64,000 nt of DNA, taken from a virus. The number at the start of each line of letters is the position of its first letter. The first letter of the stretch is position 1. Location: the IMG/VR virus record IMGVR_UViG_3300042914_002215. One strand, 5' to 3'. Of this stretch, positions 31,938-61,395 are shown piece by piece. The notes below the pieces were generated by a model. The model did not search any database. It was not told the origin of the DNA and was given only the letters and a program-made list of their open reading frames with translations. The translations under genes were made by a program, and so were the position numbers.

Positions 31938-32489
31938 ATGGCAATAGACCAAATTTCGACAGCCAATACCTTTGAAGAGTGGTTAAGCACAACCTCCACT
32001 CTTGTTGCGGTAGCAAACAATCTGACTAACAATACGAGCGGTGGCTTTGTGATGAACTCTTCAATTTTCATTGAAGGTTCAGAGTCATCTCTAAATGTTC
32101 GTACACTTGCAAACATAAATTCACTCACCGCTAACACCGCAAATATTGCAAACGTTTCTTTTAATGGAAGTAATGTTTCAATACCACTTGATTTGACTAT
32201 TGGAAGAAATGCAAATTTAGTAGGAAATGTTGCCTCTGTAAATGTTACAAACAGATTGTTCGTTGGTGGTGATACCGTTTTACATGGTAATCTAACTGTA
32301 TCCGGTAATGTTACATTAGATGCAATTGGGTATGATGATCTAAGTGTTGCTGGTTCTATCAACTCAGCAAATCTAAACACAAGCACTGGTAATATTACAT
32401 TACTTGTTGGAAATGCAAATACAGCAATTTACAGCACTATTACCGCAGCGATTGATTCATCGATTGCGTTTGCGATTGCTCTTGGTTAA
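31938..32489 (+). CDS. fibre stalk protein ending IAFAIALG
   Basis: ANTFEEW N-terminus; GNLTVSGN beta-repeats; hydrophobic C-terminal peptide. Confidence 0.6.
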   Translation: MAIDQISTANTFEEWLSTTSTLVAVANNLTNNTSGGFVMNSSIFIEGSESSLNVRTLANINSLTANTANIANVSFNGSNVSIPLDLTIGRNANLVGNVASVNVTNRLFVGGDTVLHGNLTVSGNVTLDAIGYDDLSVAGSINSANLNTSTGNITLLVGNANTAIYSTITAAIDSSIAFAIALG

Positions 32490-32518
32490 ATAAATACTGA
32501 CGATAAACAGAGGATTTA

Positions 32519-32854
32519 ATGGCTAACAATTTTAAAAATAACGTTCTTAAAGCAGCAGGAACAACATTACAAAATGCATATACCGCTGCTTCTGGTGTTC
32601 AAGCAACCGTTATTGGTATGACGATTGCGAACATTACCACATCTCCCATATCAGCAAATGTTGTTTTGACCTGTTCTGGTGCTGCTGCACCAAACGTTTA
32701 CTTGGTCAAAGATGCTACAATTGCTCCAGGTGGCGCTCTTGTTCCAATCGGCGGTGATCAAAAACTTGTGCTTGAAGCCGGTGATTACTTACAGATAAGC
32801 ACTTCAGTTGCATCCGCTGCTGATGTTATCACTTCTGTTCTGGAGATTACCTAA
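32519..32854 (+). CDS. ~110-aa fibre adaptor (MANNFKN type)
   Basis: beta-rich; KLVLEAGD.L, SVLEIT end; AATAAATA upstream at 32489. Confidence 0.6.
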   Translation: MANNFKNNVLKAAGTTLQNAYTAASGVQATVIGMTIANITTSPISANVVLTCSGAAAPNVYLVKDATIAPGGALVPIGGDQKLVLEAGDYLQISTSVASAADVITSVLEIT

Positions 32855-33489
32855 TGTCTTACATTGGCAATAATCCTGATGTGAATGTATTTACGATCGG
32901 AGTTGATAGATTCAACGGCACAGGCGCTTGTACAGAGTTTATTCTTACAAGAGATATTGATGACGCAAAAGCAATTGAAGTTATTGTTAATGGAGTTCAA
33001 CAAGATCCAGATAATGCTTACACTGTAACAAATGGTTTAATCACATTTAGTGAAGCGCCATCTTCTGGTACAGATAATATTACTGTCACATATCGTGCAC
33101 CTGTTGTTGTTACATTTAATCAAGTTACTACATCACAATTACAAGCAAATGCTGTAACTTCAACTGCTATTGCATCCAATGCAGTCACAACAATTAAGAT
33201 TGCACAAAGTGCTGTTACTGGAGATAAGATTCCTGATCGTGCGATTACATCAAACAACATCGTTGAGGGATCAATCACAAGCAATTTGATTGCAACAAAT
33301 ACAGTTGCAGGTAACAATATCGTTCCTGGTACAATTACAGGCAATTTAATTGCTTCCGGTACAATCGCAGGTAATGCAATTGGTGTTGGACAAATTACAG
33401 GTAATTTAATTGCAGACTTTGCGATTAGTGCAAACAATTTAACAAATCCAGATAATTTTGAAGATTCGTTCTTATTAGGTGGAATGTAA
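32854..33489 (+). CDS. fibre stalk protein (MSYIGN start, decad repeats, ends FEDSFLLGGM)
   Basis: F..AP..G..I.V domain, then IxxxAITGNL 10-aa repeats. Confidence 0.65.
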   Translation: MSYIGNNPDVNVFTIGVDRFNGTGACTEFILTRDIDDAKAIEVIVNGVQQDPDNAYTVTNGLITFSEAPSSGTDNITVTYRAPVVVTFNQVTTSQLQANAVTSTAIASNAVTTIKIAQSAVTGDKIPDRAITSNNIVEGSITSNLIATNTVAGNNIVPGTITGNLIASGTIAGNAIGVGQITGNLIADFAISANNLTNPDNFEDSFLLGGM

Positions 33490-33500
33490 AAGGAAAATAA

Positions 33501-33839
33501 ATGGCAAGAATATATAAAATCTTAGGACAAAGAAATCCAGGCTCAGGTGTATTGACGAATGTTTATACTGTGCCAGCTGGCAATTCTGCGGTCGTTTCTT
33601 CTATTGTATTGACAAATACATCGGGCACTGCAACTGGTGGTGTTGCTGCAAGAGTAGCAGTAAACGCTTCTGGTGTAGCGGTTGCAACTGCAAACTATCT
33701 TGCATATGATGTGAACGTTCCTGGCTGTGATAGCGTGACTCTCACACTTGGTATTACAATGAATGCGGGATCTCAATTGTCTGTACAAGCTAATTCATCA
33801 TCATTGGCAATTTCAGTTTTTGGCGCAGAGATTTATTAA
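33501..33839 (+). CDS. ~110-aa fibre adaptor (YKILGQ type)
   Basis: paralog of 35361 and 59629: YKILGQ.NP...YTVPAGNS...LGIT.NA...FG.E.Y. Confidence 0.7.
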   Translation: MARIYKILGQRNPGSGVLTNVYTVPAGNSAVVSSIVLTNTSGTATGGVAARVAVNASGVAVATANYLAYDVNVPGCDSVTLTLGITMNAGSQLSVQANSSSLAISVFGAEIY

Positions 33840-33854
33840 ACAGAATATTAGATT

Positions 33855-35351
33855 ATGACAATTCGTTCATTAAATCGAAACACAAACGTAATTAAGAGAA
33901 TTACTAAAAGCCGCACTGCTGCCGATCTTACACGCCGTCGTTCAATTAAACAAGTAATTGCGGGTGAAGGTAAGCCTGATTTTTACATCAAATGGATGAT
34001 TGTTGGAGGAGGTGGTGAGGGTGGTGCTGGAATGGGCGGAGGAGGTGGTGGTGGAGGTATCGTCATTGGTATTAATTATCTTTCACCAACAGGTAATTTA
34101 ACATACGGAACAAACTATCCAATTGGTGTTGGCGGTGGTGGAGGATACTCATCTGGACGTGGTGGTAATGGTGGAGACTCATCATTTTTAGGATTTATTG
34201 CTTACGGTGGTGGCGGTGGTGGAGGACTTAATAGTCCTGCTTCAAATACAAACGCAAGGCCCGGAGGCTCTGGTGGTGGTGAACCCAATTCACTTTACAC
34301 AGCAGCGTTTGGACTTCAAGGAGGAATGGGTGGAGTCAAATTTATAATTGATAATAATCGTCCATATGGAGGATTCGGTAGCGTAAATGATAATCAAGAT
34401 GGCTCAGGAGATAGATCGGGAAAAGGCGGCACAGATAACACTTGGTATGATGATGACTTCACTTACAATAAAAATAAAAATTTAAATCCAGCTTATCCTG
34501 CTCCAGGTCCATTATCATTTAGAGGATATGGCGGTGGTGGTGGTGGTGCAGCTGGTTTTGATGACGGAATCGTTTCTGGCAGTGGAAAAACCGAAGGTGG
34601 TGATGGTGGTGATGGTTATGCATATGGATTTGAAAACAACTTTTTACAAGGACCTATAGCAAATTTTATTTGGGGATTGGGTTATGGTGGTGGTGGAAGT
34701 TCTGGTGGTTATCAAAATAATCCAAGAGATGGTTACAATGGTCCTGCACCTTCCGTTTTTCCAAATGCACCCGGTGGTGTGAAAACTGGATGGGGTTCTA
34801 TTCGTGACGCTGGAGACTCTTGGACAGGCGAACCAAATTGGTCGCCAAACGGAGATGGTATAGGATTCAATCCAAGTCGTGGTAATCCGGGTGAACCTTG
34901 GCATAATGGTCCATCTGGTGGATTTCCTCCTGCTGGCAATTCATTTCCGCCTTTTGGTTATAAATCAGGATTTGGTGAAAATGTCTCACCGGGTGGACCA
35001 GCACCTCTACCATATTCTACGCCAGCTGGATATTATTCAATGAATGGTTTACCAAACTCTGGACAAGGAGGCGGCGGAAGATGGAATGGCGGTTCAAATT
35101 ATAAATGGGCTTGTCGTGGACCTTTTTGGGGATCAGACTCATATAATCCTGGTGCACCAAACTGGTTAGGTCGTGCAGCAGCAAATACAGGAGGTAAAGG
35201 TGGTTCAGGTGTTGTGTTCCTTTCGTATCCGCAAGTATTCGGCAACTGTTCAAACACAGGAAGTCCAGACGTATATGTAACAACAGATGGTTTTAGAATT
35301 TACACATTTAGAGGTAGTGGTTCAATTACAATTGACTACGATCCTAATTAA
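33855..35351 (+). CDS. glycine-rich putative receptor-binding tip protein
   Basis: IVGGGG..GGGGGG...GGSGVV; long aromatic/Pro-rich insertions. Confidence 0.65.
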   Translation: MTIRSLNRNTNVIKRITKSRTAADLTRRRSIKQVIAGEGKPDFYIKWMIVGGGGEGGAGMGGGGGGGGIVIGINYLSPTGNLTYGTNYPIGVGGGGGYSSGRGGNGGDSSFLGFIAYGGGGGGGLNSPASNTNARPGGSGGGEPNSLYTAAFGLQGGMGGVKFIIDNNRPYGGFGSVNDNQDGSGDRSGKGGTDNTWYDDDFTYNKNKNLNPAYPAPGPLSFRGYGGGGGGAAGFDDGIVSGSGKTEGGDGGDGYAYGFENNFLQGPIANFIWGLGYGGGGSSGGYQNNPRDGYNGPAPSVFPNAPGGVKTGWGSIRDAGDSWTGEPNWSPNGDGIGFNPSRGNPGEPWHNGPSGGFPPAGNSFPPFGYKSGFGENVSPGGPAPLPYSTPAGYYSMNGLPNSGQGGGGRWNGGSNYKWACRGPFWGSDSYNPGAPNWLGRAAANTGGKGGSGVVFLSYPQVFGNCSNTGSPDVYVTTDGFRIYTFRGSGSITIDYDPN

Positions 35352-35360
35352 GAGAGAAAC

Positions 35361-35699
35361 ATGGCAAGAGCATACAAAATCTTAGGTCAAATTAATCCAT
35401 CAGCAAATGTGCTGAGTACACTTTACACTGTACCCGCTGGTAATTCAACAATCATTTCATCAATTACAATTGCTAATCTTGATGAAAATGCTGCAAATGG
35501 TGCAGCATTTAGAATTGCTGCAAACAACTCTGGTGTTGCTGTTGCCAATGCAAATTATCTTTCATACGGTGTTAATGTACCAGGTCGTGATGCAATAACT
35601 TATACGTTAGGTATAACATTAAATGCTGGTTCAGTTATTTCTGTAAATGCAAACAGTTCATTACTTGCCTTTTCTGCTTTTGGCACAGAAGTTTATTAA
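35361..35699 (+). CDS. ~110-aa fibre adaptor (YKILGQ type)
   Basis: paralog of 33501 and 59629. Confidence 0.7.
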   Translation: MARAYKILGQINPSANVLSTLYTVPAGNSTIISSITIANLDENAANGAAFRIAANNSGVAVANANYLSYGVNVPGRDAITYTLGITLNAGSVISVNANSSLLAFSAFGTEVY

Positions 35700-35701
35700 T
35701 C

Positions 35702-37648
35702 ATGTCACTCAATAGAGCAAATTTAAATAGAATCTCGTTAAAAAGATTTTCTGTTCCTGGAACAGGCGGTGGAGGTGCTGTCACTCCACCAAGTACATTT
35801 ATTCCAATTGATTATTTTATTGTAGCCGGTGGTGGAGGTAGCGGTCCTTACAGTGGTGGAGGTGGTGCTGGTGGTTTTCTTCAAGGATATTATCAAACGA
35901 ACTTTGCTACTGCGAATGATGCATTCGTTGTTGTAGTTGGTTCTGGTGGTGGTGGTAACACCAATGGCACAAATTCTGGAATTTATTCAACTGCAAATAC
36001 ATTAAACGCCATTTGGTCTGCCGGTGGTGGTCGTGGTGGTGTTGGTCATCCTGTTTGGGCAAGCGGTGGTGGAGATGGTGCTGGTTATGGAGCATCTGGC
36101 GGTTCTGGTGGCGGTGCGGGTACAGGTAACTATAGTTGGCCAACATCACCATTTGGCTATTTAGTTGGTGGTTTAGGCATTGGAGCACAAGGTAATGATG
36201 GTGGACAATCTGGTTATTTTGACGGTGCTCCTGGCTGGTCTTGGGGTGAAGCTGGTGGTGGTGGAGGAGCACTGGGTCGTGGAACTCAAGGTGGACAAGG
36301 TAGAAATCAGCCTCCTGTTTATACAGGTGGTGGAGGTGGTAATGGTGGCATTGGCATATTCTCGACATTTACTGGTGCAAACGTAGGCTATGCTGGTGGT
36401 GGAGGTGGATTTAATATTCCAATGACACCCTTAGATGGTACAAATACTTATGGTGGCATTGGTTATTTTAGTTGTGGTGGAGGTAATTCTGCTGCCACAT
36501 ATGCGAATAATTTTATATTCAGACAGCAAACAAATGGTGGAGAAAATACCGGCGGCGGTGCTGGTGGTGGGCTCAACTCTAGAGGTGGTTCTGGTATTGT
36601 TATTATTCGATATCCAAATACTTATGCAAATGCAATAATTGCTGGTAATGCAGTGTTTTCAAACGTAGAAAGTTACTTTAGATGTTATACATTTAGATCA
36701 ACTGGAACAATTATTTTTCCATCAACGGGCGCTGCACCAAATGTGCCTACGGGTGGACCAACACAGATAGATTATCTTGTCGTTGCTGGTGGTGGTGGTG
36801 GAACTACAGCAAGTGGTGGCGGTGGCGGTGGTGGAGTTTTACAAGGTTCAGGATATAAGATTTCAACTGGCGTTACATACACAATTAGTATCGGTGGCGG
36901 TGGTGGTGCTAATACTAACGGCGTCAATTCTGGGATTTATAATACAAGCGCATCTGTCTGGTCTGCCGGTGGTGGTCGTGGTGGTGTTGGTGTACCGGTA
37001 TTTGTTGAACCTGTGAGTAGAGGTGCTTCAGGTGGTTCCGGTGGTGGTGCTGGTGCAGTTGATTATTCGGCAGGACAATCAGGTAATTTTGGTGGTAGTG
37101 AAGGAGTACCGGGACAAGGATTTGGTGGTGCTCGTTCTGGTCCGGCTGCACCAGGACCACCTTGGGCAAGAGGTGGCGCCGGTGGCGGTGGCGGTGCTGG
37201 TGGTTCGGGCGCAGAAGGAGGTGGTGGTTCAAGTTTTGACTATTATGGTGCAGCAGGTGGAAATGGTGGCGTTGGTATTTTCTCTACAATCACTGGTGCA
37301 AATGTAGGTTACGCCGGCGGTGGTGGTGGTAACAACGATCAACTAAGTCCATTACAAGGATGGCCTCCAGGATTGCCTGGCGGTATAGGATATATCAGTT
37401 GCGGTGGTGGTAATAGCGCATTCATATTAGCAAATGGATTTACGATAAGAGCAAGAACTGGTGGTACAACAAACAGAGGTGGTGGCGCTGGAGGTGGTGC
37501 GCCTGCTGCAAGTGGCGGCTCTGGTGTTGTGATTGTCAGATACTTAGATTCTTTTTCTAATGCAGTTGTAACTGGAAGTCCAACGTTTGCAAACGTTGGA
37601 GGATACAAGATATATACATTCAATGGAGCAGGAACTATAACATTTTAA
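35702..37648 (+). CDS. glycine-rich tip protein, two tandem domains
   Basis: two DY..VAGGG...GGSG.VI.RY units; exact 33-nt repeat at 36014 and 36959. Confidence 0.7.
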   Translation: MSLNRANLNRISLKRFSVPGTGGGGAVTPPSTFIPIDYFIVAGGGGSGPYSGGGGAGGFLQGYYQTNFATANDAFVVVVGSGGGGNTNGTNSGIYSTANTLNAIWSAGGGRGGVGHPVWASGGGDGAGYGASGGSGGGAGTGNYSWPTSPFGYLVGGLGIGAQGNDGGQSGYFDGAPGWSWGEAGGGGGALGRGTQGGQGRNQPPVYTGGGGGNGGIGIFSTFTGANVGYAGGGGGFNIPMTPLDGTNTYGGIGYFSCGGGNSAATYANNFIFRQQTNGGENTGGGAGGGLNSRGGSGIVIIRYPNTYANAIIAGNAVFSNVESYFRCYTFRSTGTIIFPSTGAAPNVPTGGPTQIDYLVVAGGGGGTTASGGGGGGGVLQGSGYKISTGVTYTISIGGGGGANTNGVNSGIYNTSASVWSAGGGRGGVGVPVFVEPVSRGASGGSGGGAGAVDYSAGQSGNFGGSEGVPGQGFGGARSGPAAPGPPWARGGAGGGGGAGGSGAEGGGGSSFDYYGAAGGNGGVGIFSTITGANVGYAGGGGGNNDQLSPLQGWPPGLPGGIGYISCGGGNSAFILANGFTIRARTGGTTNRGGGAGGGAPAASGGSGVVIVRYLDSFSNAVVTGSPTFANVGGYKIYTFNGAGTITF

Positions 37649-37662
37649 TTAGGAGTGAGTGA

Positions 37663-38093: not shown

Positions 38094-39044
38094 ATGTCAT
38101 ATATTGGCAATCAAGTTACTTCTGTACCACACATAATTGATACCTTTACTGGCACAGGCACAGGTACAACATTTGGTCCTTTGACGAGAGCACCTGCTGG
38201 CACTGCGGCTATAGCAGTTTTTATCACAGGATCTTATCAAATACCTGGTGTTGATTATACGTTAAATGGCGACTATATCAACTTTGTTGCTGCTCCATTT
38301 AATCTTGCGACAATCGTTGTTCATCATTTAGGTAATGGTACAACAACACAAGTACCATCTGATGGATCTGTTACTGGAACAAAATTAGCAGTTAATTCTG
38401 TTCGTGGTAATAATATTGTTGCGGGCACTATTACAGGCAATCAAATTTCTCTTAGTGCTATTTCAGGTAATCAGATAGGTGCTTATGCTGTATCAGGCAA
38501 CCAAATTGGTGTCGGTGCTATTAGTGCCAATAATTTTGCTGGTGGTGGCATTACATCAAATGTTCTTGCACCGAATCTGACATTAACGCTGACGAGAACA
38601 AATGAAACGACGAATTTATTTTCCACTGCACCTTCAGGAAATATAAACATTGACGTTGCAAATACAACGTTATATTATTTCACATCAAATACGACAGCGG
38701 GTATAACTTTTAATCTTCGTGCAAACAGTGTAAACACTTTTGATTCAGTAGTTAGAATTGGTGAAACTGTCACTGTAACAGTTATGCTTCGTCATTCAAC
38801 AACGTCAGGCGGTCGTCATCCAGCAAATGTTTATATTGATGGTGGACTTATTTCCACCAATAGAACAAATCCAGATCAAGCTGGTGCTAATAATATATTT
38901 TATGTTGGTAATTTAGTACCAATTTATGCTGCAACAATACCAGGAACTGGTGTTGAAATGAATATGTATAATATAAGCGTTTTTAAACGAGCGGCAAATA
39001 CTTATACAGTATTCATGTCTAATACTACAGCACAAATAGGATAA
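38094..39044 (+). CDS. fibre stalk plus fused C-terminal adaptor domain (MSYIGN start)
   Basis: decad repeats; C-terminal NID...T.YY.....TFNLR domain shared with 39978 and 55776. Confidence 0.65.
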   Translation: MSYIGNQVTSVPHIIDTFTGTGTGTTFGPLTRAPAGTAAIAVFITGSYQIPGVDYTLNGDYINFVAAPFNLATIVVHHLGNGTTTQVPSDGSVTGTKLAVNSVRGNNIVAGTITGNQISLSAISGNQIGAYAVSGNQIGVGAISANNFAGGGITSNVLAPNLTLTLTRTNETTNLFSTAPSGNINIDVANTTLYYFTSNTTAGITFNLRANSVNTFDSVVRIGETVTVTVMLRHSTTSGGRHPANVYIDGGLISTNRTNPDQAGANNIFYVGNLVPIYAATIPGTGVEMNMYNISVFKRAANTYTVFMSNTTAQIG

Positions 39045-39977: not shown

Positions 39978-40637
39978 ATGCCTTTAACAAGAATAGTAGG
40001 CGCAAGCATAACAGACGGAACAGTTGTTGCTGCCGACATAGCAGATGGTTCTGTTACTGGTTCAAAATTAGGTACTGCTTCTGTAAGTGGTAATAATATT
40101 GGAACTGGTGCAATTTCAGCAAACAATTTTGCGGGCGGTGGCATTACATCAAATGTTCTTGCATCAAATTTGAGTATTTCAGTTTCACGTGTATCTGAAA
40201 CGTTATCAATCAATACAGCCGTAATTGGTTCAAACAGTGCATCAGGTACAAATGTAAATCTTGATATCATCAATACAACTGTTTATTATTTTAGTTCGAA
40301 TACTTCTGGTAATGTAACGTTTAATCTTCGTGGTAATAATATCAATACATTTGATTCTGCTGTTCAAGTTGGTAATACAGTTTCAGTTGTGGTAACATTA
40401 CGACATAACACAGCAGCATATCGTTCTGGCGTAAATGTGATGATTGATGGCGGTCTTATTAGAACTACATTAGCAAATCCTGATTCAGATAATTTAATAA
40501 TGTATTCGGGCAACACATTGCCAACACACTCCGTCATTAATGCTATCGAATCTAATATTATTGGATTAACTGTGATAAAGAAAGCAGCAAACTCTTATAT
40601 TGTTTACATGTCTAACACAATATTTGGATTGACATAA
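39978..40637 (+). CDS. fibre stalk plus fused adaptor domain
   Basis: paralog of the 38094 C-half; shares an exact 27-nt stretch (40137-40163 vs 38544-38570). Confidence 0.65.
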   Translation: MPLTRIVGASITDGTVVAADIADGSVTGSKLGTASVSGNNIGTGAISANNFAGGGITSNVLASNLSISVSRVSETLSINTAVIGSNSASGTNVNLDIINTTVYYFSSNTSGNVTFNLRGNNINTFDSAVQVGNTVSVVVTLRHNTAAYRSGVNVMIDGGLIRTTLANPDSDNLIMYSGNTLPTHSVINAIESNIIGLTVIKKAANSYIVYMSNTIFGLT

Positions 40638-44981: not shown

Positions 44982-44983
44982 TA

Positions 44984-55600: not shown

Positions 55601-55775
55601 GGACTTACCTCTGGTTCGTGATATGGGTAATAGCATTCTTGGAGGAGGAACAAATGATCCAACAAGAGGTTTCTTCCCAGATGGACCAGATATAGTGACA
55701 ATTGTTGCTCGTAACGTTGGTACGGCAGCGGCGTCGGTATTCTCACGACTTTCATGGACAGAAGCACAAGCATAA
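52689..55775 (+). CDS. large virion/fibre structural protein
   Basis: LITNVT.NQ.IYNFSDP, DPVNKFRVS.PQS.IDTDFEYG, RQTRRYFRYQSGKG, WYGAG, LSW.EAQA; ACTAAATA at 52634. Confidence 0.75.
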   Translation: MARKAIIDTYYSFTPSTRTIVFNQVIQRERFVLITNVTTNQVIYNFSDPNLKLTSHTISQNTTSGVSTTTIVLQYNTTAMSSTDKLQVVVDEYAEVFEPDELYTDPVNKFRVSQPQSMIDTDFEYGTQATKWETLSLVNNRAFAYANVAANSDVSVGGPINVSAITVNSNSSFVTVYTPNPPIVNTPIFITDTAWGPADGTYVVDAVFSGLGFRYTAKQRYQATLGVTTGLNINIPGVSQVANGSVFTRSNIAISNINFTGVFANGIVRTVQPHGLSLGNEIILQGTVAATSGAPNGTFTITGVYSNTEFRIDSNVAPVSATGINSGGFANLFSSGRSTVVHRAYDGGVEFSTAAEGHNNQLIRQTRRYFRYQSGKGIQMSTGTLMKPSIRLDSITSSGVTVTVKTKEPHFLDTNTSITITGCNESAYNGTFTISEVLDPYTLRYIAGSTPSSATATGLYFLSVNGWYGASNRVGMFDDQNGIFFEFDGQQLYAVRRSSTRQLSGFISANVANTQIDGVSVNGVTTKFASELDVGDYIVIKGMSYRVIEINSDSRLHVSPAYRGNTQILQGVTAKTIDFKIPQSQWNLDRCDGTGPSGFNLDLRKMQMFYLDYSWYGAGFVRWGFRGADGNIIYCHKMINNNVNYEAYMRSGNLPGRYETNTFAPRTKVQATINAGDTSVNVANASAFPTSGTLWITNGAGLSEFVNYNGVTNSSPTGWTFNNLVRGQPGATINCIMSTSNSVLNLVSGQTTTGIQLGMFVQSANVPQVAQVVSINPNVSIQLSQAPQIGGTGLVTFIPMGNVAQTFTYSATSPTYAELHAPGYAPRIAHWGTSVIMDGRYDDDKSFVFTQGMRGGLSVPAGQRMALQSFRVAPSVNNGVPGSALGDREVVNRMQMVLRQLDLLSGGQFLIEVVLNGSTANAAPVWQNVGGSSLTQYVNHAVNTRIDGGEVIYGFFTNSSGGASNLTTTSMDLPLVRDMGNSILGGGTNDPTRGFFPDGPDIVTIVARNVGTAAASVFSRLSWTEAQA

Positions 55776-56420
55776 ATGCAAACAGTTACTACATTACCAA
55801 TACTGCAAACCGTTAGTGATTCACAAGATCACTATATCGGTTTGCAGCCCGCAATTGGTGGAAAAACAACGGCAGAGTATGTCAATCGCAATCTGTCGTT
55901 CAATCCTGCATCAAACACTCTGAACATTGGAGTTAATGTTCAATTTCTGCCTAATGCTGTGAGTGGTGCAGCAATTGCTGATGGTGGTATCACTTCATCA
56001 AAAATTGGTGCGCTTACACGACTAATTGAACAGGCAAAAATAATTCCAGGCACAACGGGTGGTAATGTAAACATTGATTTATTGGAAGCGACAGTATATT
56101 ATCTCACTGGATTTCCAAGTGCTAATTTGACATTCAATCTTCGTGGAAGTTCTTCAAGAAGATTAGATGAATTGTTAAATCCTGGCCAATCAATCAGCAC
56201 TGTATTTTTGATATCTCAAAATGTGAATCAATATGCAGCAAATATATCTATTGACGGGATTTATCAAGCAGCAAATACAAGATATCTTGGTAATTCAAAG
56301 CCAGGATTTGCAACTCTAACGGGTAATCCAATCATTGATGTGTATTCAATAGTGACATTAAAAGTTGGCGCAAACGCATACACTGTGTTAAGTTCTAATA
56401 CTGCTTTCGGAACAGGTTAA
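55776..56420 (+). CDS. fibre stalk plus fused adaptor domain
   Basis: LSFNPAS knob; C-domain paralogous to 38094/39978. Confidence 0.65.
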   Translation: MQTVTTLPILQTVSDSQDHYIGLQPAIGGKTTAEYVNRNLSFNPASNTLNIGVNVQFLPNAVSGAAIADGGITSSKIGALTRLIEQAKIIPGTTGGNVNIDLLEATVYYLTGFPSANLTFNLRGSSSRRLDELLNPGQSISTVFLISQNVNQYAANISIDGIYQAANTRYLGNSKPGFATLTGNPIIDVYSIVTLKVGANAYTVLSSNTAFGTG

Positions 56421-56421
56421 T

Positions 56422-56595
56422 ATGCCAGAACAAAAAGTTGAATCGGGTCGTATAGCAACAGGTGCAGTCACTACAGACAAGATTGCGCCTCTTGCTATTA
56501 CAGGTAATCTTATTGCAAACAACGCTGTCAGTGGAAACAATATTGTTTCACCTCCGGATATTTTCGATGATGCACTTTTATTTGGTGGTATGTAA
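56422..56595 (+). CDS. 57-aa mini-stalk ending FDDALLFGGM (not in ORF track)
   Basis: MPEQKVESGRIATGAVTTDKIAPLAITGNLIANNAVSGNNIVSPPDIFDDALLFGGM*; fills the gap exactly. Confidence 0.8.
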   Translation: MPEQKVESGRIATGAVTTDKIAPLAITGNLIANNAVSGNNIVSPPDIFDDALLFGGM

Positions 56596-56822
56596 TGATA
56601 CAAAAAGTTAGAACGAGTTTAATTGCAGATCAAGCAGTTGATGGTAATAACATGGGTGTTCGTGCTGTTAGTGCGAATAATATAGCACTCGGTGCTATTA
56701 CAGGCAATCTTATTTCAACAAGTGCAGTCAGTTCAAACAACATTGCTAACGGTTCTATCACTAACGACAAATTGTCTGAGCCGAACGCATTTGAAGATTA
56801 CTTTCTAATGGGTGGTTTGTAA
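56595..56822 (+). CDS. mini-stalk ending FEDYFLMGGL
   Basis: decad repeats plus conserved C-terminal peptide. Confidence 0.75.
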   Translation: MIQKVRTSLIADQAVDGNNMGVRAVSANNIALGAITGNLISTSAVSSNNIANGSITNDKLSEPNAFEDYFLMGGL

Positions 56823-59386
56823 TGGGTTTAAAAAGGTACACCGTAGCAAGCATCACTAATCAAAGATTCACTGTTCGTGGATTTGGTGGAGGTGCTATCA
56901 CACCTGCTGCACCAGTCGTTACGAATACTGCTATACAAATATTTACGGAAAGTAGTGCATGGGTGGCACCACCTGGTGTAACATCAGTTGAATATCTTGT
57001 TGTTGCTGGTGGAGGAGGTGCAGGTTTTAATCACTCGGGTGGTGGCGGTGGAGGTGGTTATCGTGCAGGTACTGGTTTATTTGTAACAGCAAATCAAACG
57101 TATACAATTGTTGTTGGTGGTGGTGGCACAGGAGGTTCTTCTGCTGGCAACAGAGGAGGAAACGGCTCAAATTCTGGAATTTATGGAACTGCTCCTTTTT
57201 CAGCCCTATGGTCAACTGGAGGAGGAGGTGGAGGAAACAGACACGATGGGACTCAAGCTCCAGCACAACATGGGAACTCTGGCGGTTCTGGAGGTGGTGG
57301 TGGTGGCGAAGATATTTCCGGCGCCGGAAATGGTGGTTCTGGTACGCCTGGCCAGGGATTTTCTGGTGGAAATGGTATAAATGGAAACTCTTTGGCATCA
57401 GGCGGCGGTGGTGGTGGCGCAGGCGCAGCTGGATTAAACGCTGCACCATCTTTAGGAGGTAACGGTGGTATAGGTATTTTTTCCACAATTACCGGTGCAA
57501 ATGTAGGATACGCTGGTGGTGGTGGCGGTGGTGGAATGGGGACCGGAGGTTTAGGAGCATTTTCGTTTGGTGGAGCAAATGGACATATATTAACTAATTC
57601 TACTGGCTCATCTGGAAATGTAAATCTTGGAGGTGGTGGTGGAGGCACTGGACCTTCAACTAATCCATCGGGAACAGGTGGTGCTGGCGGTTCTGGTATT
57701 GTTGTTCTCAAATACACATTTGGTGATGCTACAAATCAAACATTTGTCTTTGCAAATACAGGACAATTTAGAGTACCTGATGGAATCACAACAATTGATT
57801 ATCTGTTAGTTGCAGGTGGAGGTGGAGGAGGTTCTCAATCTGGCGGTGGCGGTGGCGGTGGTGGTGTTCTTGTTGGTACAGGATATCCCGTAGGACCAAA
57901 TCAATTATACACTATTCAAGTTGGTGCGGGAGGTTCTGGTGTGCCTTCCGTAGCGCCGGGCGGCGGCTCTTTTTCTGGAAATAATGGAACGAATACTGTT
58001 TTCTCAACAGGTAACACAGCAAATTCTGCTTTATTTACCGCTGTAGGAGGCGGTGGTGGTGGAAGAACAACTGCAAATGGAGCAAATGGCGGTTCGGGTG
58101 GTGGAGCAGGTAGTTCTTCTATAAGTGCTCGTTTGGGTGGTACAGGTACACCAGGACAAGGATATGATGGTGGAAATAATATAGTTTCTGGAACAACCAA
58201 TTTTATGGCTGGCGGCGGTGGTGGTGGTGCTGGTGTTAAAGGTGGAGATTCTTTTTGGATTAGTAGTCCAAATACTATAGCTAGTGGTAATGGTGGTAAT
58301 GGTATTTTTTCAACAATCACAGGAACATCTGTCGCTTATGGTGATGGTGGTGGCGGTGGTTCATATAATCGTGGTGCTCCTATAGGACCGGGCTATACAT
58401 ACTATTCTTCCGGTGGATATGGTTCAGGTGGTGCGGGAGGTGTAAATTTAGAAGCAAATGGAACGGACGCTATTGTTTCCACTGGCTCTGGTGGTGGTGG
58501 AGGTGGTTTAGCAGGTACTTTGCCAGCTGGTAAATCTGGTTCAGGCAGTTCGGGTATAGCAGTCATCAAAATATCAGCAGTACAAAATAAGATTGCAGTG
58601 TTCTCCAACACAGCAACATGGAATGTTCCAACAGGTGTAACTGCCGTTGATTATGTTGTCGTGGGTGGAGGTGGAGGTGGTGCATCTGGAGGTGGTGGCG
58701 CTGGTGGATATAGAACAGGAGCAAGTTTTCCAGTAACGCCAGGAACATTAATGACGGTTACTGTTGGTGCTGGCGGTGCAGGTGGTATTGCAACAAGTCC
58801 TGCTATGACACCCGCATCAAACGGAACAGACTCCATTTTCTCAACAATCACATCAGCTGGTGGTGGAGGTGGTGCTGGCTATCCATCAAACTCGGGCAGA
58901 AGTGGTGGCTCCGGTGGAGGTGGTGCAACAAGTGGTCCGAATCAACAAGGTGGCCAGGGTAATTGGTGGTCAAGTAATAACTCATTCTCAGGAATTTCAC
59001 CAGCACAAGGAACAAGTGGAGGCTCTGGTTACGGATATTTTGGTGTAGCTGGTGGCGGTGGCGGTGGCGCAGGTGCAAATGGTGCAAGTGCAGTCGTAGA
59101 CTTAACAAATGTTGCTGGAGCGGGTGGTATCGGCACACCATCAACTATAACAGGATCGGCAGTATATTATGCTGGTGGCGGCGGTGGTGGTGCATCAAAT
59201 GGTTCACCGGGCGCCACAGCAGCAGCAGGAGGTCTTGGTGGTGGCGGTAATGGTTCTAGTGCTGCTGCGCCAGTAGGAGGTAGTAATGGTGGCGCAGGTT
59301 TAGGCGGCGGTGGTGGCGGTTCAGGCACACCTGGAACAGTTGGCGGCTCTGGTGGTGGCGGAGTTGTCATTCTCAAATGGACATAA
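56822..59386 (+). CDS. glycine-rich tip protein, three tandem domains (paralog of 41960)
   Basis: near-identical linkers and C-terminus VILKWT. Confidence 0.75.
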   Translation: MGLKRYTVASITNQRFTVRGFGGGAITPAAPVVTNTAIQIFTESSAWVAPPGVTSVEYLVVAGGGGAGFNHSGGGGGGGYRAGTGLFVTANQTYTIVVGGGGTGGSSAGNRGGNGSNSGIYGTAPFSALWSTGGGGGGNRHDGTQAPAQHGNSGGSGGGGGGEDISGAGNGGSGTPGQGFSGGNGINGNSLASGGGGGGAGAAGLNAAPSLGGNGGIGIFSTITGANVGYAGGGGGGGMGTGGLGAFSFGGANGHILTNSTGSSGNVNLGGGGGGTGPSTNPSGTGGAGGSGIVVLKYTFGDATNQTFVFANTGQFRVPDGITTIDYLLVAGGGGGGSQSGGGGGGGGVLVGTGYPVGPNQLYTIQVGAGGSGVPSVAPGGGSFSGNNGTNTVFSTGNTANSALFTAVGGGGGGRTTANGANGGSGGGAGSSSISARLGGTGTPGQGYDGGNNIVSGTTNFMAGGGGGGAGVKGGDSFWISSPNTIASGNGGNGIFSTITGTSVAYGDGGGGGSYNRGAPIGPGYTYYSSGGYGSGGAGGVNLEANGTDAIVSTGSGGGGGGLAGTLPAGKSGSGSSGIAVIKISAVQNKIAVFSNTATWNVPTGVTAVDYVVVGGGGGGASGGGGAGGYRTGASFPVTPGTLMTVTVGAGGAGGIATSPAMTPASNGTDSIFSTITSAGGGGGAGYPSNSGRSGGSGGGGATSGPNQQGGQGNWWSSNNSFSGISPAQGTSGGSGYGYFGVAGGGGGGAGANGASAVVDLTNVAGAGGIGTPSTITGSAVYYAGGGGGGASNGSPGATAAAGGLGGGGNGSSAAAPVGGSNGGAGLGGGGGGSGTPGTVGGSGGGGVVILKWT

Positions 59387-59412
59387 AATAAATACGAACA
59401 AAAGAGACAGCA

Positions 59413-59619
59413 ATGGTAGATATCGTAAGAGTAGGTTCAAATCGTATAGCAAATAGTTCAGTGACAGGCAATAAAATTGCTGATAACTCTATTCGTGCTA
59501 ACAATATCGTTGCTGGACAAATTACAGGCAATCTAATTGCCGATAATACAGTTACAAATTCAAATCTTTCAGAGCCAAACGCTTTTGAAGATTACTTTTT
59601 ATTAGGTCTAGGCTCATAA
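59413..59619 (+). CDS. mini-stalk ending FEDYFLLGLGS
   Basis: decad repeats; AATAAATA at 59387. Confidence 0.75.
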   Translation: MVDIVRVGSNRIANSSVTGNKIADNSIRANNIVAGQITGNLIADNTVTNSNLSEPNAFEDYFLLGLGS

Positions 59620-59628
59620 GGAAAAAAA

Positions 59629-59958
59629 ATGCCAAGAAGATATGCTATTTTAGGACAAATTAACCCATCAGCAAATACACTTGCAACTTTATATCAAGTG
59701 CCAGCAGGTAATTCTGCTGTTATTTCTTCAATCAATATTGCAAATCTTGATGCTAATGCTGCTGCTTTTAGTATTGCTGCTAATGTATCTGGTATTGCAA
59801 CTGCTAATGCAAACTATCTTGCATGGCGTGTTTCTGTGCCAGGCAATGATTCAATTGCATTGAGTTTGGGTGTGACACTTAATGCATCATCGTATTTGTC
59901 TGTTAATGCTAATACATCAACAGTTACTTTCTCAGCTTTTGGCACAGAACTCTACTAA
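59629..59958 (+). CDS. ~110-aa fibre adaptor (YKILGQ type)
   Basis: paralog of 33501 and 35361. Confidence 0.7.
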   Translation: MPRRYAILGQINPSANTLATLYQVPAGNSAVISSINIANLDANAAAFSIAANVSGIATANANYLAWRVSVPGNDSIALSLGVTLNASSYLSVNANTSTVTFSAFGTELY

Positions 59959-61184
59959 TGCCAATCCGTAAGTTTACTAATGGTCGTTTCAGCGTAAAAC
60001 GATTCACTGCACCAGGTGCAGGAAGTTCTGCTTCATTTCCGCCTACTTGGGTTACAGCGAATGGTTCACTGGGAATTGTATCAAGAAATTCGGCGTTTAC
60101 ACCTGCCACAGTTACCGCAATTTCTTCCGGATCAATCATCTATGCGGTTTCTTCAGGAACATTGCCTGAAGGATTGTATTTAGGATCATCTAATGGAACT
60201 ATTTTTGGAACATACTCTTTAGCACCAAAACCGAATACTGGAAATAGTTTAATTAAAAATTTTAATGTTAGAGCAACAGATACTTCTTCAGGATTATTCA
60301 GTGATGCATCTTTTTCGATTAATACAATTAATGAATTTGTTACCACTGTAAATTTTTCTTATACAGGCGCAGATCAACTTTATACTTTACCTCCAAATGT
60401 TAATTGGGTTAGAGCACAGTTGTGGGGTGCGGGTGGAGGAAATTGGAGAGCAACAACAGGCGCAGGAGGATATACAGAAGCTATAGTTTCAGTTCCTTCT
60501 GGAGTTAATACAATGAATGTTATTGTTGGTGGTGCGGGAGGAAATTATAATGGTGGTTATGGTGGAGGAGGATTCTCAAACGTAGACGGTGGTAGTGGTG
60601 GCGGTGGTGGCGGTGGTAGAAGTGCAATTCGATTTGCTTCTCCTGGAAATCCTTTTGTTGAAGTTTTAACTGCTGGTGGAGGTGGTGGTTCTGGTTTAGG
60701 TGGTAATTCTGGTGGTGGCGGTGGCGGTTTAACAGGTTTACCCGGAAATGGTCCGGCAGCGGGTACTGGAGGAACACAGAGTACGGGTGGTGCTGGAGGC
60801 ACAGGAAGCGGTGGAACAGCAGGATCAGGATCACAATTTCAAGGAGGAACTTCCACTGGCGGCTTCTCAGGCGGTGGCGGTGGCGGTGGTTATTATGGTG
60901 GTGGTGGTGCTTCAGGTGTGCCTACACAGCATCATGGTGGTGGTGGCGGTTCTGGATTCATTGGAACAAATGGATCAACTGCATTACCTGGAAACGAACA
61001 AGGATCGTTTAGCACTTTTGGAGATACAACTCCAAGATTTGATTCAGTTCGTGCCGTTTATTATGAATACACAAGATGTTTGAGAGGTGGTACAGCTAAT
61101 AGTGCTGCTGCATATTCTGGTCCAGGTTATTCACCTGGAACTGGAGGGTCTGGACAAAACGGTTACGTGTCAGTTTCTTGGTAA
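59958..61184 (+). CDS. putative Ig domain plus glycine-rich tip protein
   Basis: SGTLPEGL.L....G.I.GT...F.VRATD (He_PIG-like), then FSYTGADQ...LWGAGGG Gly-rich domain. Confidence 0.7.
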   Translation: MPIRKFTNGRFSVKRFTAPGAGSSASFPPTWVTANGSLGIVSRNSAFTPATVTAISSGSIIYAVSSGTLPEGLYLGSSNGTIFGTYSLAPKPNTGNSLIKNFNVRATDTSSGLFSDASFSINTINEFVTTVNFSYTGADQLYTLPPNVNWVRAQLWGAGGGNWRATTGAGGYTEAIVSVPSGVNTMNVIVGGAGGNYNGGYGGGGFSNVDGGSGGGGGGGRSAIRFASPGNPFVEVLTAGGGGGSGLGGNSGGGGGGLTGLPGNGPAAGTGGTQSTGGAGGTGSGGTAGSGSQFQGGTSTGGFSGGGGGGGYYGGGGASGVPTQHHGGGGGSGFIGTNGSTALPGNEQGSFSTFGDTTPRFDSVRAVYYEYTRCLRGGTANSAAAYSGPGYSPGTGGSGQNGYVSVSW

Positions 61185-61200
61185 TTTAAAAGGAAAAATT

Positions 61201-61395
61201 ATGGCTATATTTAATCCCGTTCATGTTTATGATGTTATTTGGGAAGATTCAGAAGGTAACAGAACGCAAAAAAGTTATTTTGTTGAAGGAACCAAAGGTA
61301 AAATTGAAATTGATGAAGAGTTAAAATTATTGTTTCCCGATGCTGTTGATTTTGCTTATATAAGATTAGCAGAATCAATTGAGCCATTAAAATAA
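61201..61395 (+). CDS. hypothetical protein
   Basis: AAGGA RBS favours ATG 61201. Confidence 0.65.
   Translation: MAIFNPVHVYDVIWEDSEGNRTQKSYFVEGTKGKIEIDEELKLLFPDAVDFAYIRLAESIEPLK

What the first reader, a model, noticed from the sequence alone, without database searches (positions are those of the whole stretch)
31938..61395. A 30-kb plug-and-socket kit for a branched, multi-tip fibre apparatus
Seen in sequence, a few part types recur. (1) Stalks of IxxxAITGNL decads, four of which end in the same peptide: FEDSFLLGGM (33489), FDDALLFGGM (56595), FEDYFLMGGL (56822), FEDYFLLGLGS (59619). (2) Three YKILGQ adaptors. (3) Four Gly-rich tips with basic KR(F/I)(T/S)-like N-termini (33855, 35702, 56822, 59958), three directly after an adaptor. 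(4) Three stalks with a fused adaptor domain, two followed by tips with an early ..(A/T)FG peptide. (5) Other proteins end in distinct hydrophobic-Gly tails: IAFAIALG before the MANNFKN adaptor, LDGGLF before the IQIKRS fibre, DILMGY before 52689, and GKAIAMSIVFGG, which may pair with the orphan MAAPNIV adaptor. Inference: terminal peptides are orthogonal plugs, each docking into a cognate adaptor or N-domain. That would let seven tips (about 12 Gly-rich domains) be assembled combinatorially on one virion in place of T4 gp9-12/wac. I know of no description of this grammar.
Basis: partly seen in the sequence, partly recalled or inferred. Interest (0 to 1): 0.85.

Follow-up and report, generated by a model that had tools for sequence, protein, structure and literature searches.

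The report
Three-class plug-adaptor code for phage fibres
This phage, like thousands of uncultured and several cultured ones, seems to build its tail fibres from separate proteins joined by small connector proteins, each connector type always encoded between one kind of tail-end peptide and one kind of head-end peptide; that would be a reusable assembly code for host-recognition parts, but no binding has yet been shown.

Summary
All listed peptides, adaptors and glycine-rich tips are at the stated coordinates (12 Gly-rich domains in 7 tips).

Cross-genome tests show three joint classes:
- A: ..AFAIALG, then a MANxFK adaptor, then a MxYIGN stalk.
- B: ..F(D/E)DxFLxGGM or PFLLxGM, then a YKILGQ adaptor, then a tip with a basic N-terminus.
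- D: ..AMSIVFGG, then a MAAPNIV adaptor, then a ..NGGxIG tip.

In non-redundant metagenomic loci, 146 of 146 plug-bearing upstream neighbours were cognate (67/64/15), none crossed. The triads recur in cultured phages: HTVC010P, S-TIM5, Melnitz, an Ochrobactrum phage, phiPsal1 and S-SKS1.

The adaptors are paralogous 8-strand jelly rolls (PHROG 1276, no Pfam family, no solved homologue; 5,415 clusters). Natural fusions join adaptor to tip, stalk to adaptor, and adaptor to adaptor.

Physical docking remains an inference; the one complex prediction gave no verdict. The "fused adaptor" domain of three stalks is not homologous to the adaptors.

The principle is known from T-even long fibres, the gp38 adhesin and the K1-5/CBA120 adaptors. 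This connector family and its three-way specificity appear undescribed.

Two earlier first-reader notes of this scan describe the same three classes on another genome.

The parts
31715..31936 (+). 73-aa coiled-coil-like protein that precedes the plug-A stalk
   Evidence: Homologous small ORFs sit in the same position in L148, L152, L158, L163 and Melnitz gp167. Its role is unknown.
31938..32489 (+). Stalk 1 (183 aa) ending ..SIAFAIALG, the class A plug
   Evidence: The same C-terminus lies upstream of class A adaptors in 67 non-redundant loci and in HTVC010P, S-TIM5, an Ochrobactrum phage and Melnitz.
32519..32854 (+). Class A adaptor (MANNFKN; 111 aa jelly roll)
   Evidence: PHROG 1276, E 6.7e-9. 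tblastn matches in 46 cultured-phage records, many annotated as virion structural protein.
32854..33489 (+). Stalk 2 (211 aa): MSYIGN acceptor N-terminus, ten decad repeats, class B plug FEDSFLLGGM
   Evidence: PHROG 892 tail fiber. In 59 of 62 loci the gene after adaptor A starts MxYIGN, and most of these proteins end in a class B plug.
33501..33839 (+). Class B adaptor (MARIYKILGQ; 112 aa)
   Evidence: Its paralog g59629 gives an AF2 model with pLDDT 89 and an 8-strand jelly roll.
33855..35351 (+). Tip (498 aa), basic N-terminus, one Gly-rich domain
   Evidence: PF21722 below threshold (20.8 bits, cut-off 24.3). Domain-end motif at residue 449.
35361..35699 (+). Class B adaptor (MARAYKILGQ; 112 aa)
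35702..37648 (+). Tip (648 aa), N-terminus MSLNR..SLKRFSVPG, two Gly-rich domains
   Evidence: PF21722 at 35.9 bits. PHROG 2295 with two stretches. Motif count.
38094..39044 (+). Stalk (316 aa): MSYIGN N-terminus, decads, C-terminal PHROG 5906 domain (class C donor)
   Evidence: The gene pair with a following MP..FGN tip is conserved in 13 loci.
39047..39955 (+). Tip (302 aa), one Gly-rich domain, early ..SAFG peptide
   Evidence: PF21722 at 45.4 bits.
39978..40637 (+). Short stalk (219 aa) with a PHROG 5906-type C-terminal domain
   Evidence: The AF2 model is poor (pLDDT 53).
40637..41557 (+). Tip (306 aa), MPFQATFGN N-terminus, one Gly-rich domain
   Evidence: PF21722 below threshold at 21.5 bits. 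Homologous pairs.
41577..41960 (+). Class D adaptor (MAAPNIV; 127 aa)
   Evidence: PHROG 1276, E 2e-4. A4 HMM E 1.3e-24. Homologs follow ..IVFGG/..IIFGG tails in 15 loci and occur in S-SKS1.
41960..44548 (+). Tip (862 aa), MAVRFNGGIIG acceptor N-terminus, three Gly-rich domains
   Evidence: PF21722, E 2e-50, three stretches. N-terminal motif conserved after D adaptors.
44598..45382 (+). Two paralogous ~130-aa 'MAHFAQL' proteins (PHROG 7759); candidate fibre chaperones
   Evidence: The family directly follows a Gly-rich tip in 15 of 18 non-redundant cases and in Melnitz, phiPsal1 and L213.
45814..46035 (+). 73-aa protein ending ..LDGGLF, directly before the long fibre
   Evidence: 16 of 16 inspected relatives end ..GGxF and are followed by MANTxIQIKRS. 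These are close relatives only.
46045..52206 (+). Long fibre (2053 aa) ending ..GKAIAMSIVFGG, the class D plug
   Evidence: The identical tail lies directly upstream of D adaptors in L036 and L038.
52210..52632 (+). 140-aa protein ending ..PTDILMGY (resembles a class B plug)
   Evidence: 6 of 6 relatives end PFxPxD(I/V)(L/F/M)(L/M)G(Y/M) and precede MARKxI... Absent in S-PM2.
52689..55775 (+). 1028-aa virion structural protein conserved in cyanomyoviruses
   Evidence: PHROG 5838, E 9e-293. 44% identical to S-PM2 p175.
55776..56420 (+). Stalk (214 aa) with a PHROG 5906 C-terminal domain
56422..56595 (+). Mini-stalk (57 aa) ending FDDALLFGGM (class B plug)
56595..56822 (+). Mini-stalk (75 aa) ending FEDYFLMGGL (class B plug)
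   Evidence: Homologous mini-genes precede B adaptors in L029, L031 and L032.
56822..59386 (+). Tip (854 aa), basic N-terminus MGLKRY..QRFTVRG, three Gly-rich domains, no adaptor gene of its own
   Evidence: PF21722, E 6e-57, three stretches.
59413..59619 (+). Mini-stalk (68 aa) ending FEDYFLLGLGS (class B plug)
   Evidence: Homologs in L026-L028 and L033.
59629..59958 (+). Class B adaptor (MPRRYAILGQ; 109 aa)
   Evidence: AF2 model pLDDT 89.2, eight strands. Jelly-roll matches at Z 9.9.
59958..61184 (+). Tip (408 aa): MPIRKF..SVKRFTAPG N-terminus, Ig-like domain, ALK/LTK-type Gly-rich domain
   Evidence: PF05345 at 33.5 bits and PF12810 at 31.4 bits.

Best explanation
The region encodes a modular tail-fibre apparatus. 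Separately translated segments appear to be joined end to end by small (~110 aa) jelly-roll connector proteins.

There are three paralogous connector classes. Each is tied to one kind of C-terminal hydrophobic-Gly peptide on the proximal segment and one kind of N-terminal peptide on the distal segment:
- A: ..A(F/Y)(A/S)IALG, then the MANxFK adaptor, then a MxYIGN stalk.
- B: ..F(D/E)DxFLxGGM or ..PFLLxGM, then the YKILGQ adaptor, then MxLxR..SLKRFxxP tips.
- D: ..(A/G)(M/S)(I/L)(I/V)FGG, then the MAAPNIV adaptor, then M..(F/L)NGGxIG tips.

Proposed mechanism (inferred): the adaptor acts as the proximal attachment domain of the distal segment, supplied in trans. It holds that segment's N-terminal peptide and captures the C-terminal peptide(s) of the trimeric proximal stalk.

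In this phage that would chain g31938 through adaptor A to g32854 (or g38094). g32854 would then connect through adaptors B to tips g33855 and g35702. The 2053-aa fibre g46045 would connect through adaptor D to tip g41960. The mini-stalks would connect through B to g56822 and g59958.

The tips are TNF-like/polyglycine receptor-binding domains of the Pam3 gp24 / S16 gp38 / ALK kind.

Shown: the parts, their class-specific adjacency across many genomes, and the fusions. Inferred: direct peptide-adaptor contact, stoichiometry, and presence of all parts on one virion.
For: - Parts verified.
- Class-specific adjacency: 67 A/A, 64 B/B, 15 D/D and 0 non-cognate among non-redundant loci. Downstream N-termini are also class-specific: A gives MxYIGN in 59 of 62, B gives basic tips, D gives NGGxIG.
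- The triads recur in distant cultured phages with different morphologies and hosts: HTVC010P, S-TIM5 and Ochrobactrum vB_OspM_OC, Melnitz (two joints), the Pontimonas siphovirus phiPsal1 and the cyanosiphovirus S-SKS1.
- The same plug sits on unrelated bodies, from 40-aa mini-stalks to fibres of 1266 aa and more than 3000 aa. The same adaptor class precedes unrelated tips, Gly-rich or 680-1392-aa non-Gly.
- Fusions: adaptor joined to a Gly-rich tip (P0059, P0075, P0101, P0129, P0151) and to other C-terminal domains. A MAYIGN stalk joined in frame to adaptor B1 in L152, where relatives keep them separate. P0149 keeps an internal FDDAFQFA, then a linker, then the adaptor. Two adaptors plus a collagen fibre in P0002.
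- L211 and L213: one fibre ending ..FLLMGA is followed by three adaptor-headed tips.
- The adaptor is a confident 8-strand jelly roll (pLDDT 89), like oligomeric virion decoration proteins (Z 9.7-9.9).
- Homologs are annotated as virion or structural proteins by depositors.
- A separate family (PHROG 7759) occupies the classical chaperone position after the tips.
- Tip identity: Pfam PF21722/PF12810, and the role of the Gly-rich domain in Pam3 gp24 (PMC9608196).
Against: - There is no direct evidence of binding.
- Conserved gene order among related phages is partly inherited synteny, so the 146 cognate pairs are not 146 independent events.
- The motif patterns were refined after looking at the data.
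- g56822 has a class B acceptor N-terminus and two plug-bearing mini-stalks upstream, but no adaptor gene beside it. Four B plugs face three B adaptors.
- 13 B and 11 D adaptors follow a tip that has no plug. So stoichiometry and the partner of each adaptor are not fixed by gene order.
- The 'virion structural protein' annotations could not be traced to proteomic data here.
- No solved structure contains a homolog.
Confidence: 0.6

Rival explanations
1. The ~110-aa proteins are fibre assembly chaperones (Tfa-like), not connectors. They recognise the C-terminal peptide of the upstream fibre, or the N-terminus of the tip, during folding and trimerisation, and are released or only loosely retained.
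For: They lie directly downstream of fibre genes, which is the usual place of Tfa genes. They are small beta proteins. In Pam3 the chaperone gp25 uses a beta-sandwich domain to grip the TNF-like/Gly-rich domains (PMC9608196). Fibre folding often starts at the C-terminus.
Against: In tandem arrays each adaptor goes with the tip downstream of it, not with a fibre upstream. Adaptors are found permanently fused to the N-terminus of tips and to the C-terminus of a stalk. No similarity to Caudo_TAP or any Pfam chaperone family appeared in the Pfam scan. Another conserved family (PHROG 7759) sits after the tips, where a chaperone is expected. Several homologs are annotated as virion proteins.
Confidence: 0.17
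2. The terminal peptides are structural end-caps or trimerisation motifs of the fibre segments, or the proximal and distal segments touch each other directly. The adaptors are then accessory decorations or collars. The tight association reflects inherited cassette structure and recombination at conserved boundaries, not peptide-in-adaptor docking.
For: Many of the loci are from related phages, so synteny is expected. g56595 and g56822 abut with no adaptor between them. The class C joint works without a free adaptor. The best structural matches of the adaptor are capsid cement or turret decoration proteins.
Against: The triads persist across myo-, podo- and siphoviruses with no DNA similarity, and on unrelated protein bodies. 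That points to selection on the proteins, not to shared DNA. Class-specific covariation of plug, adaptor and acceptor is hard to explain if the adaptor does not read the peptides. P0149 retains the plug motif followed by a linker before the fused adaptor.
Confidence: 0.15
3. The short genes (57-75 aa) and some of the motifs are annotation artefacts or decaying fragments of larger fibre genes, and the apparent grammar is over-read.
For: Three of the plug-bearing ORFs are very short, and one fell below the default ORF listing threshold.
Against: Intact homologous mini-genes with the same termini occur in several independent metagenomic contigs, directly upstream of adaptors (L026-L033). They are tightly packed, with overlapping stop/start codons.
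Confidence: 0.03

Closest known systems
T-even long tail fibre joints (T4 gp34-gp35-gp36-gp37; gp38 adhesin on the gp37 tip in T2/S16)
   Same: A fibre built from several separately encoded segments joined non-covalently, with a small connector between trimeric segments (gp35) and a Gly-rich (polyglycine-type) adhesin at the distal tip. S16 gp38 attaches to gp37 through a short N-terminal domain on a hydrophobic platform (as described in PMC9608196; the general T4 facts are from established knowledge).
   Different: No sequence or profile similarity of the adaptors to gp35, gp36 or gp38 emerged in the Pfam, PHROG and PDB sequence searches. Here the connector is a 110-aa jelly roll in three paralogous classes, each marked by short terminal peptides, and it is reused several times in one genome.
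Branching adaptors of multi-RBP phages (K1-5/SP6 gp37-type adapter; CBA120 TSP2/TSP4 N-terminal gp10-like XD domains)
   Same: Conserved docking domains let several receptor-binding proteins share one attachment site. This concept of branched, exchangeable RBPs is discussed for podoviruses in PMC4819975.
   Different: Those systems use N-terminal domains of the RBPs themselves or a dedicated large adapter. There is no free 110-aa jelly roll and no C-terminal hydrophobic-Gly peptide code. Only the class C domain of g39978 gave a weak, unreliable match to the CBA120 TSP4 N-terminal region (Z 5.6 on a pLDDT-53 model).
Pam3 gp24 tail fibre with chaperone gp25; ALK/LTK glycine-rich domain
   Same: The tips carry the same TNF-like plus Gly-rich (GGGGxGG lattice) receptor-binding domain type (Pfam PF21722/PF12810; PMC9608196).
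   Different: Pam3 gp24 docks to the baseplate through its own N-terminal helices and is a single-protein fibre. Here the tips have a short basic N-terminal peptide, or a fused jelly roll in relatives, and up to three Gly-rich domains in tandem.
PHROG 1276 (unknown function)
   Same: All five adaptors match its first ~111 positions.
   Different: The PHROG has no functional annotation. Its 325-position profile suggests it was built partly from multi-domain or fused members.
Adenovirus fibre N-terminal tail docking on the jelly-roll penton base (from established knowledge)
   Same: A short conserved terminal peptide of a trimeric fibre is held by a jelly-roll protein.
   Different: Unrelated proteins. 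There the peptide is N-terminal and the socket is a capsid vertex protein. This is a resemblance in working principle only.

Membership tests
PHROG 1276 (phage protein family, unknown function) | Significant match to the family profile | tested here: met
   g32519 E 6.7e-9, g33501 5.9e-6, g59629 9.5e-7, g41577 2.1e-4, all on profile positions ~1-111 of 325. g35361 is 63-71% identical to g33501 and g59629.
Pfam Gly_rich_2 (PF21722) / ALK_LTK_GRD (PF12810) glycine-rich receptor-binding domain | Score above the curated gathering threshold | tested here: met
   Above threshold: g35702 35.9, g39047 45.4, g41960 172.2 (3 stretches) and g56822 193.6 (3 stretches) bits against 24.3; g59958 PF12810 31.4 against 24.5. 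Below threshold: g33855 at 20.8 and g40637 at 21.5 bits.
Pam3 gp24 / S16 gp38-type polyglycine lattice adhesin | Stacked extended glycine-rich motifs forming a lattice on a TNF-like sandwich, with variable distal loops | not tested
Only the sequence hallmarks (GGGGxGG runs, 26-36% Gly) and the Pfam matches were seen.
Tail fibre assembly chaperones (Tfa; Pfam Caudo_TAP and relatives) | Profile match to a known Tfa family | tested here: not met
   A Pfam scan of all 32 adaptor sequences at E up to 1 gave no Tfa family. The best hit was sub-threshold Phage_tail_3 (20 bits against 24.2) in 6 of 32.
Tail fibre assembly chaperones (Tfa) | Gene directly downstream of the receptor-binding fibre or tip it serves | tested here: not met
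   Adaptors lie upstream of the tips. The slot after the tips is taken by PHROG 7759 proteins.
T4 gp35/gp36-type fibre connectors | Sequence or profile similarity to gp35/gp36 families | tested here: inconclusive
   No such family appeared in the Pfam or PHROG scans of the adaptors and stalks. No targeted profile comparison was run.
T4 gp10-like / CBA120 TSP XD branching domain (considered for the PHROG 5906 C-terminal domain) | Fold similarity to the XD/gp10 domain | tested here: inconclusive
   VIA-align gave Z 5.6, rmsd 3.1 A and 90 aligned residues to CBA120 TSP4 residues 79-180, but the model has mean pLDDT 53.
   hhalign probability 0.1-0.2%.

The most novel reading that the evidence does not exclude
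The three plug/adaptor/acceptor classes form a general, orthogonal assembly code used by thousands of phage lineages, including abundant marine ones. Each chain of a trimeric stalk presents one plug, so one stalk could carry up to three different adaptor-headed tips. Supporting patterns: two or three adaptor-tip units follow a single plug-bearing fibre in the window and in L211/L213, and tandem two-domain adaptors are common. Single fibres would then be heteromeric 'bouquets' of receptor-binding tips, and host range would be set by gene-level mixing of tips behind a constant joint.
Probability: 0.25. Interest if true: 0.85.

Novelty: new variant of a known kind. Interest (0 to 1): 0.7.

Why it matters
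Receptor-binding fibres decide which bacteria a phage can infect. For most environmental phages it is unknown how the many fibre-like genes fit together.

A short-peptide and connector code would let gene lists be read as assembly graphs: which stalk carries which tip. This applies to a very large family, with 5,415 clusters at 50% identity. It includes phages of SAR11, OM43-type Methylophilales, marine Synechococcus, Rhizobium and Actinobacteria.

It would also explain how tips are swapped between unrelated fibre bodies without breaking assembly. And it gives a function to PHROG 1276, which is currently unannotated. The prediction is directly testable by co-expression and by cryo-EM of cultured carriers.

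Tried and rejected
- Complex prediction of 3x mini-stalk g59413 with 3x adaptor g59629, using my own alignments: ipSAE 0.04-0.05, tool verdict 'no answer'. This is neither for nor against binding. The stoichiometry was a guess, and only one job was available.
- AF2 model of g39978 (class C stalk): mean pLDDT 53, too poor for a fold assignment. Its VIA matches (Z up to 6.1) are leads only.
- Foldseek of the adaptor model against the PDB: nothing at E below 1e-3. VIA-align gave generic jelly rolls only: KHP40 cement protein, HFTV1 turret, nucleoplasmin, YomS and Ena.
- PDB sequence searches with the adaptor profile, g32519 and g44598: no hits.
- hhalign of the adaptors against the PHROG 5906 stalks and against the N-terminus of g52689: no similarity.
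- Megablast of 12 kb of the region against cultured phages: no match.
- Literature search for the motif strings and for virion proteomics of carriers. Nothing relevant turned up for the motifs. The S-TIM5 and HMO-2011 papers are not held. The S-SCSM1 paper reports 45 virion proteins by MS, but I could not link the 112-aa 'Virion protein' to its table.
- The context of the adaptor-collagen fusion P0002 is not a fibre module.
- No whole genome is held for this window.
- P0001 (adaptor plus ammonium transporter) was dismissed as a chimeric assembly.

Full report
**Setting.** The window is part of a T4-like phage genome. It runs from the baseplate genes (gp48/54-, gp5-, gp6-, gp7- and gp8-like) through a 2029-aa DUF4815 protein, then the region in question, then gp13- and gp14-like neck genes. 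There is no near DNA match among cultured phages. By gp6 the nearest cultured relatives are Methylophilales phage Melnitz and the Pelagibacter myophages, at about 41% identity. g52689 is 44% identical to a virion structural protein of S-PM2. All genes of the region are on the + strand and tightly packed.

**Checking the observation.**
- Four proteins end in F(D/E)Dx(F/L)LxG(GM/GL/LGS): g32854, the 57-aa ORF 56422-56595, g56595 and g59413.
- g32854 has ten clean 10-residue repeats.
- Three close adaptor paralogs (33501, 35361, 59629) and two distant ones (32519, 41577) all match PHROG 1276. An HMM finds exactly these five in six-frame translation.
- Seven glycine-rich proteins match Pfam Gly_rich_2 or ALK_LTK_GRD. 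Two of them score just under threshold. Together they hold 12 domains.

**The cross-genome test.** I fetched IMG/VR loci around homologs of the YKILGQ adaptor (56 loci), the MANNFKN adaptor (80 of 318) and the class C stalk. I then classified adaptors by best phmmer score to the three window seeds and asked how each upstream protein ends and how each downstream protein starts. After removing redundancy:

| Adaptor class | Upstream plug (count) | Other upstream neighbours | Non-cognate plug | Downstream start |
|---|---|---|---|---|
| A (MANxFK) | ..A(F/Y)(A/S)IALG (67) | 4 other, 1 contig edge | 0 | MxYIGN in 59 of 62 |
| B (YKILGQ) | ..F(D/E)DxFLxGGM, ..PFLLxGM or ..FFFTAMGS (64) | 13 Gly-rich tip, 7 another adaptor, 6 other, 4 contig edge | 0 | MxLxR..SLKRFxxP |
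| D (MAAPNIV) | ..(A/G)(M/S)(I/L)(I/V)FGG (15) | 11 Gly-rich tip, 3 other, 1 contig edge | 0 | M..(F/L)NGGxIG |

- The background frequency of these endings among 4,268 ORFs of the same loci is 1-3%.
- Class B tips may be glycine-rich (286-1101 aa) or unrelated non-Gly proteins of 680-1392 aa.
- The tail of the window's own long fibre..GKAIAMSIVFGG, occurs word for word directly upstream of a D adaptor in L036 and L038.

**Independence from shared ancestry.** Many loci are from related phages, so the counts are not independent events. But the same triads occur in very different cultured phages:
- Pelagibacter podovirus HTVC010P: ..TALAIALG, then MANTFK.
- Cyanomyovirus S-TIM5: 81 aa ending ..IALSIALG, then the adaptor, then a 1415-aa protein starting MPHIGNH.
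- Ochrobactrum phage vB_OspM_OC..LALSIALG, then a protein annotated 'C1q globular head like', then a tail fibre starting MAYLGN.
- Melnitz, which has two class A joints.
- The actinobacterial siphovirus phiPsal1..NALMLMGG, then a YKILGQ adaptor, then an unannotated Gly-rich ORF.
- Cyanosiphovirus S-SKS1..SPIMMGMIF, then a MAAPNL adaptor, then two tips starting MLGFNGGTIG and MPLYNGGRIG.

The plug also sits on unrelated bodies: 40-57-aa mini-stalks, decad stalks, a WYDTNED-type domain, and fibres of 1266 aa and more than 3000 aa.

**Fusions.** A profile search of 1.84 billion representatives found 5,415 family members at E up to 1e-3. The 154 stored family proteins (the best 150 of that search plus those) break down as follows:

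| Architecture | Count |
|---|---|
| Single adaptor domain | 98 |
| Two adaptor domains in tandem | 33 |
| Three adaptor domains | 1 |
| Adaptor(s) fused to the N-terminus of a Gly-rich tip or collagen fibre | 6 |
| Adaptor fused to another C-terminal domain (one of these, P0001, is a chimeric assembly) | 8 |
| N-terminal extension before the adaptor | 8 |

- In the adaptor-tip fusions the basic N-terminal peptide of the split tips is missing. The jelly roll runs almost straight into the first ..YLVVAGGGG strand. This identifies the first ~35 residues of the split tips as the likely docking peptide.
- In L152 a MAYIGN stalk is fused in frame to the first B adaptor. Its relatives keep a stalk ending ..HPFFFTAMGS and a separate adaptor.
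- P0149 keeps an internal FDDAFQFA, followed by a ~20-residue linker and then the adaptor.
- In L211 and L213 one fibre ending ..DTLNTFLLMGA is followed by two adaptor-tip fusions and then a free adaptor plus tip.

Fusions on both sides of the adaptor are the classical sign of a physical chain stalk-adaptor-tip.

**What the adaptor is.** With a 32-sequence alignment AlphaFold2 gives a confident 8-strand jelly roll (pLDDT 89.2). Foldseek finds no specific PDB relative. An exhaustive structural comparison gives only generic oligomeric jelly rolls: KHP40 trimeric cement protein (Z 9.9), HFTV1 turret (9.7), nucleoplasmin cores, YomS and Ena subunits. No solved structure is a sequence homolog, and there is no Pfam family. 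The fold is common among predicted phage proteins. Examples are a 112-aa 'Virion protein' of S-SCSM1, a virion structural protein of MaMV-DC, and the N-termini of 'tail fiber-like' proteins of P-SSM2 and S-CAM1.

**What the tips are.** The glycine-rich domain is the TNF-like plus polyglycine lattice type. It forms the receptor-binding end of the Pam3 fibre gp24 and resembles S16 gp38 and the ALK ectodomain (PMC9608196).

**Class C and the other tails.** g38094, g39978 and g55776 share a C-terminal domain (PHROG 5906). In 13 loci a tip starting MP(I/F)QAxFGN follows it directly. This domain shows no profile similarity to the adaptors. Its model is poor, and the weak match to the CBA120 TSP4 N-terminal region is only a lead. 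The ..GGLF and ..DILMGY tails are conserved with their downstream partners among relatives but not in S-PM2. Their status is open.

**Mechanism and rivals.** The best reading is three orthogonal non-covalent joints. In each, the jelly roll serves as the proximal attachment domain of the distal segment, supplied in trans, and captures the C-terminal peptide of the proximal segment (confidence about 0.6).
- The chaperone rival (about 0.17) is weakened in three ways. Adaptors go with the tip downstream of them. They occur as permanent fusions. And a different conserved family (PHROG 7759, 'MAHFA..') occupies the slot after the tips in 15 of 18 non-redundant cases.
- An end-cap or cassette reading (about 0.15) does not explain the class-specific three-way covariation across unrelated phages.

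Open problems remain. g56822 has no adaptor of its own, there are four B plugs for three B adaptors, and the stoichiometry is unknown.

**Novelty.** Multi-segment fibres with connectors and branching adaptors are well known: the T-even fibres, the gp38 adhesin, K1-5/SP6 and CBA120 (see PMC4819975). I found no description of this connector family or of the terminal-peptide classes. Two earlier first-reader notes of this scan describe the same three classes on another genome. They are unchecked notes, not independent evidence. I rate the finding a new variant of a known kind, with interest 0.7.

Noticed in passing
window 44598-45382 (two paralogs); also Melnitz L210:9573-9944 and 12203-12586, phiPsal1 L057:6245-6625, L213:7217-7597: A ~125-aa family starting M(A/S)H(F/Y)A(Q/K) (PHROG 7759; no Pfam or PDB match) directly follows a Gly-rich tip in 15 of 18 non-redundant cases. 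By position it is a candidate tip-folding chaperone.
   Followed up: partly
L057:5349-6245 (Pontimonas phage phiPsal1, MG835450 about 15857-16753): A 298-aa Gly-rich ORF (32% Gly, N-terminus xSIRSLSRS) lies right after the adaptor homolog but is not annotated. The annotated ORFs 022 and 023 are in other frames and look like low-complexity artefacts.
   Followed up: partly
window 31715-31936: A 73-aa protein (..NLVRDVSNKAILNTD.. followed by a charged helical tail) sits between the DUF4815 giant protein and the plug-A stalk. Homologs hold the same position in L148, L152, L158, L163 and Melnitz.
   Followed up: partly
P0007-P0150; L138, L142, L145, L163, L165: Two-domain tandem adaptors (33 of 154) and pairs of adjacent adaptor genes are common. 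A triple (P0119) also exists. This suggests hetero-oligomeric or two-layer connectors.
   Followed up: partly
P0004, P0005, P0006: Adaptor jelly rolls with a ~230-aa domain inserted after the first strand (YKxLGQ), as if the connector itself can display a binding domain.
   Followed up: no
L158:5336-5914; L148:8670-9161; window 39978: In L158 the gene after adaptor A starts MALTRVYGNLISSG rather than MxYIGN. This resembles the window's mini-stalk N-termini (g39978 MPLTRIVGASITDG), so these may be a second acceptor type for adaptor A. It rests on a single case.
   Followed up: no
window 61087-61395: The listed 102-aa GTG ORF overlaps the end of tip g59958. The real gene probably starts at the internal ATG (MAIFNPVHVY.., about 64 aa). 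Its function is unknown, and it may not belong to the fibre kit.
   Followed up: no
window 45475-45810: A 111-aa protein matching PHROG 1084 and PHROG 3304 ('L-shaped tail fiber protein assembly') lies upstream of the ..LDGGLF protein and the long fibre. Its C-terminus ..VLPSVTR is invariant in 16 inspected relatives.
   Followed up: no
P0001: An adaptor sequence joined to an ammonium transporter (PF00909) on a 1.5-kb contig. This is almost certainly a chimeric assembly.
   Followed up: no
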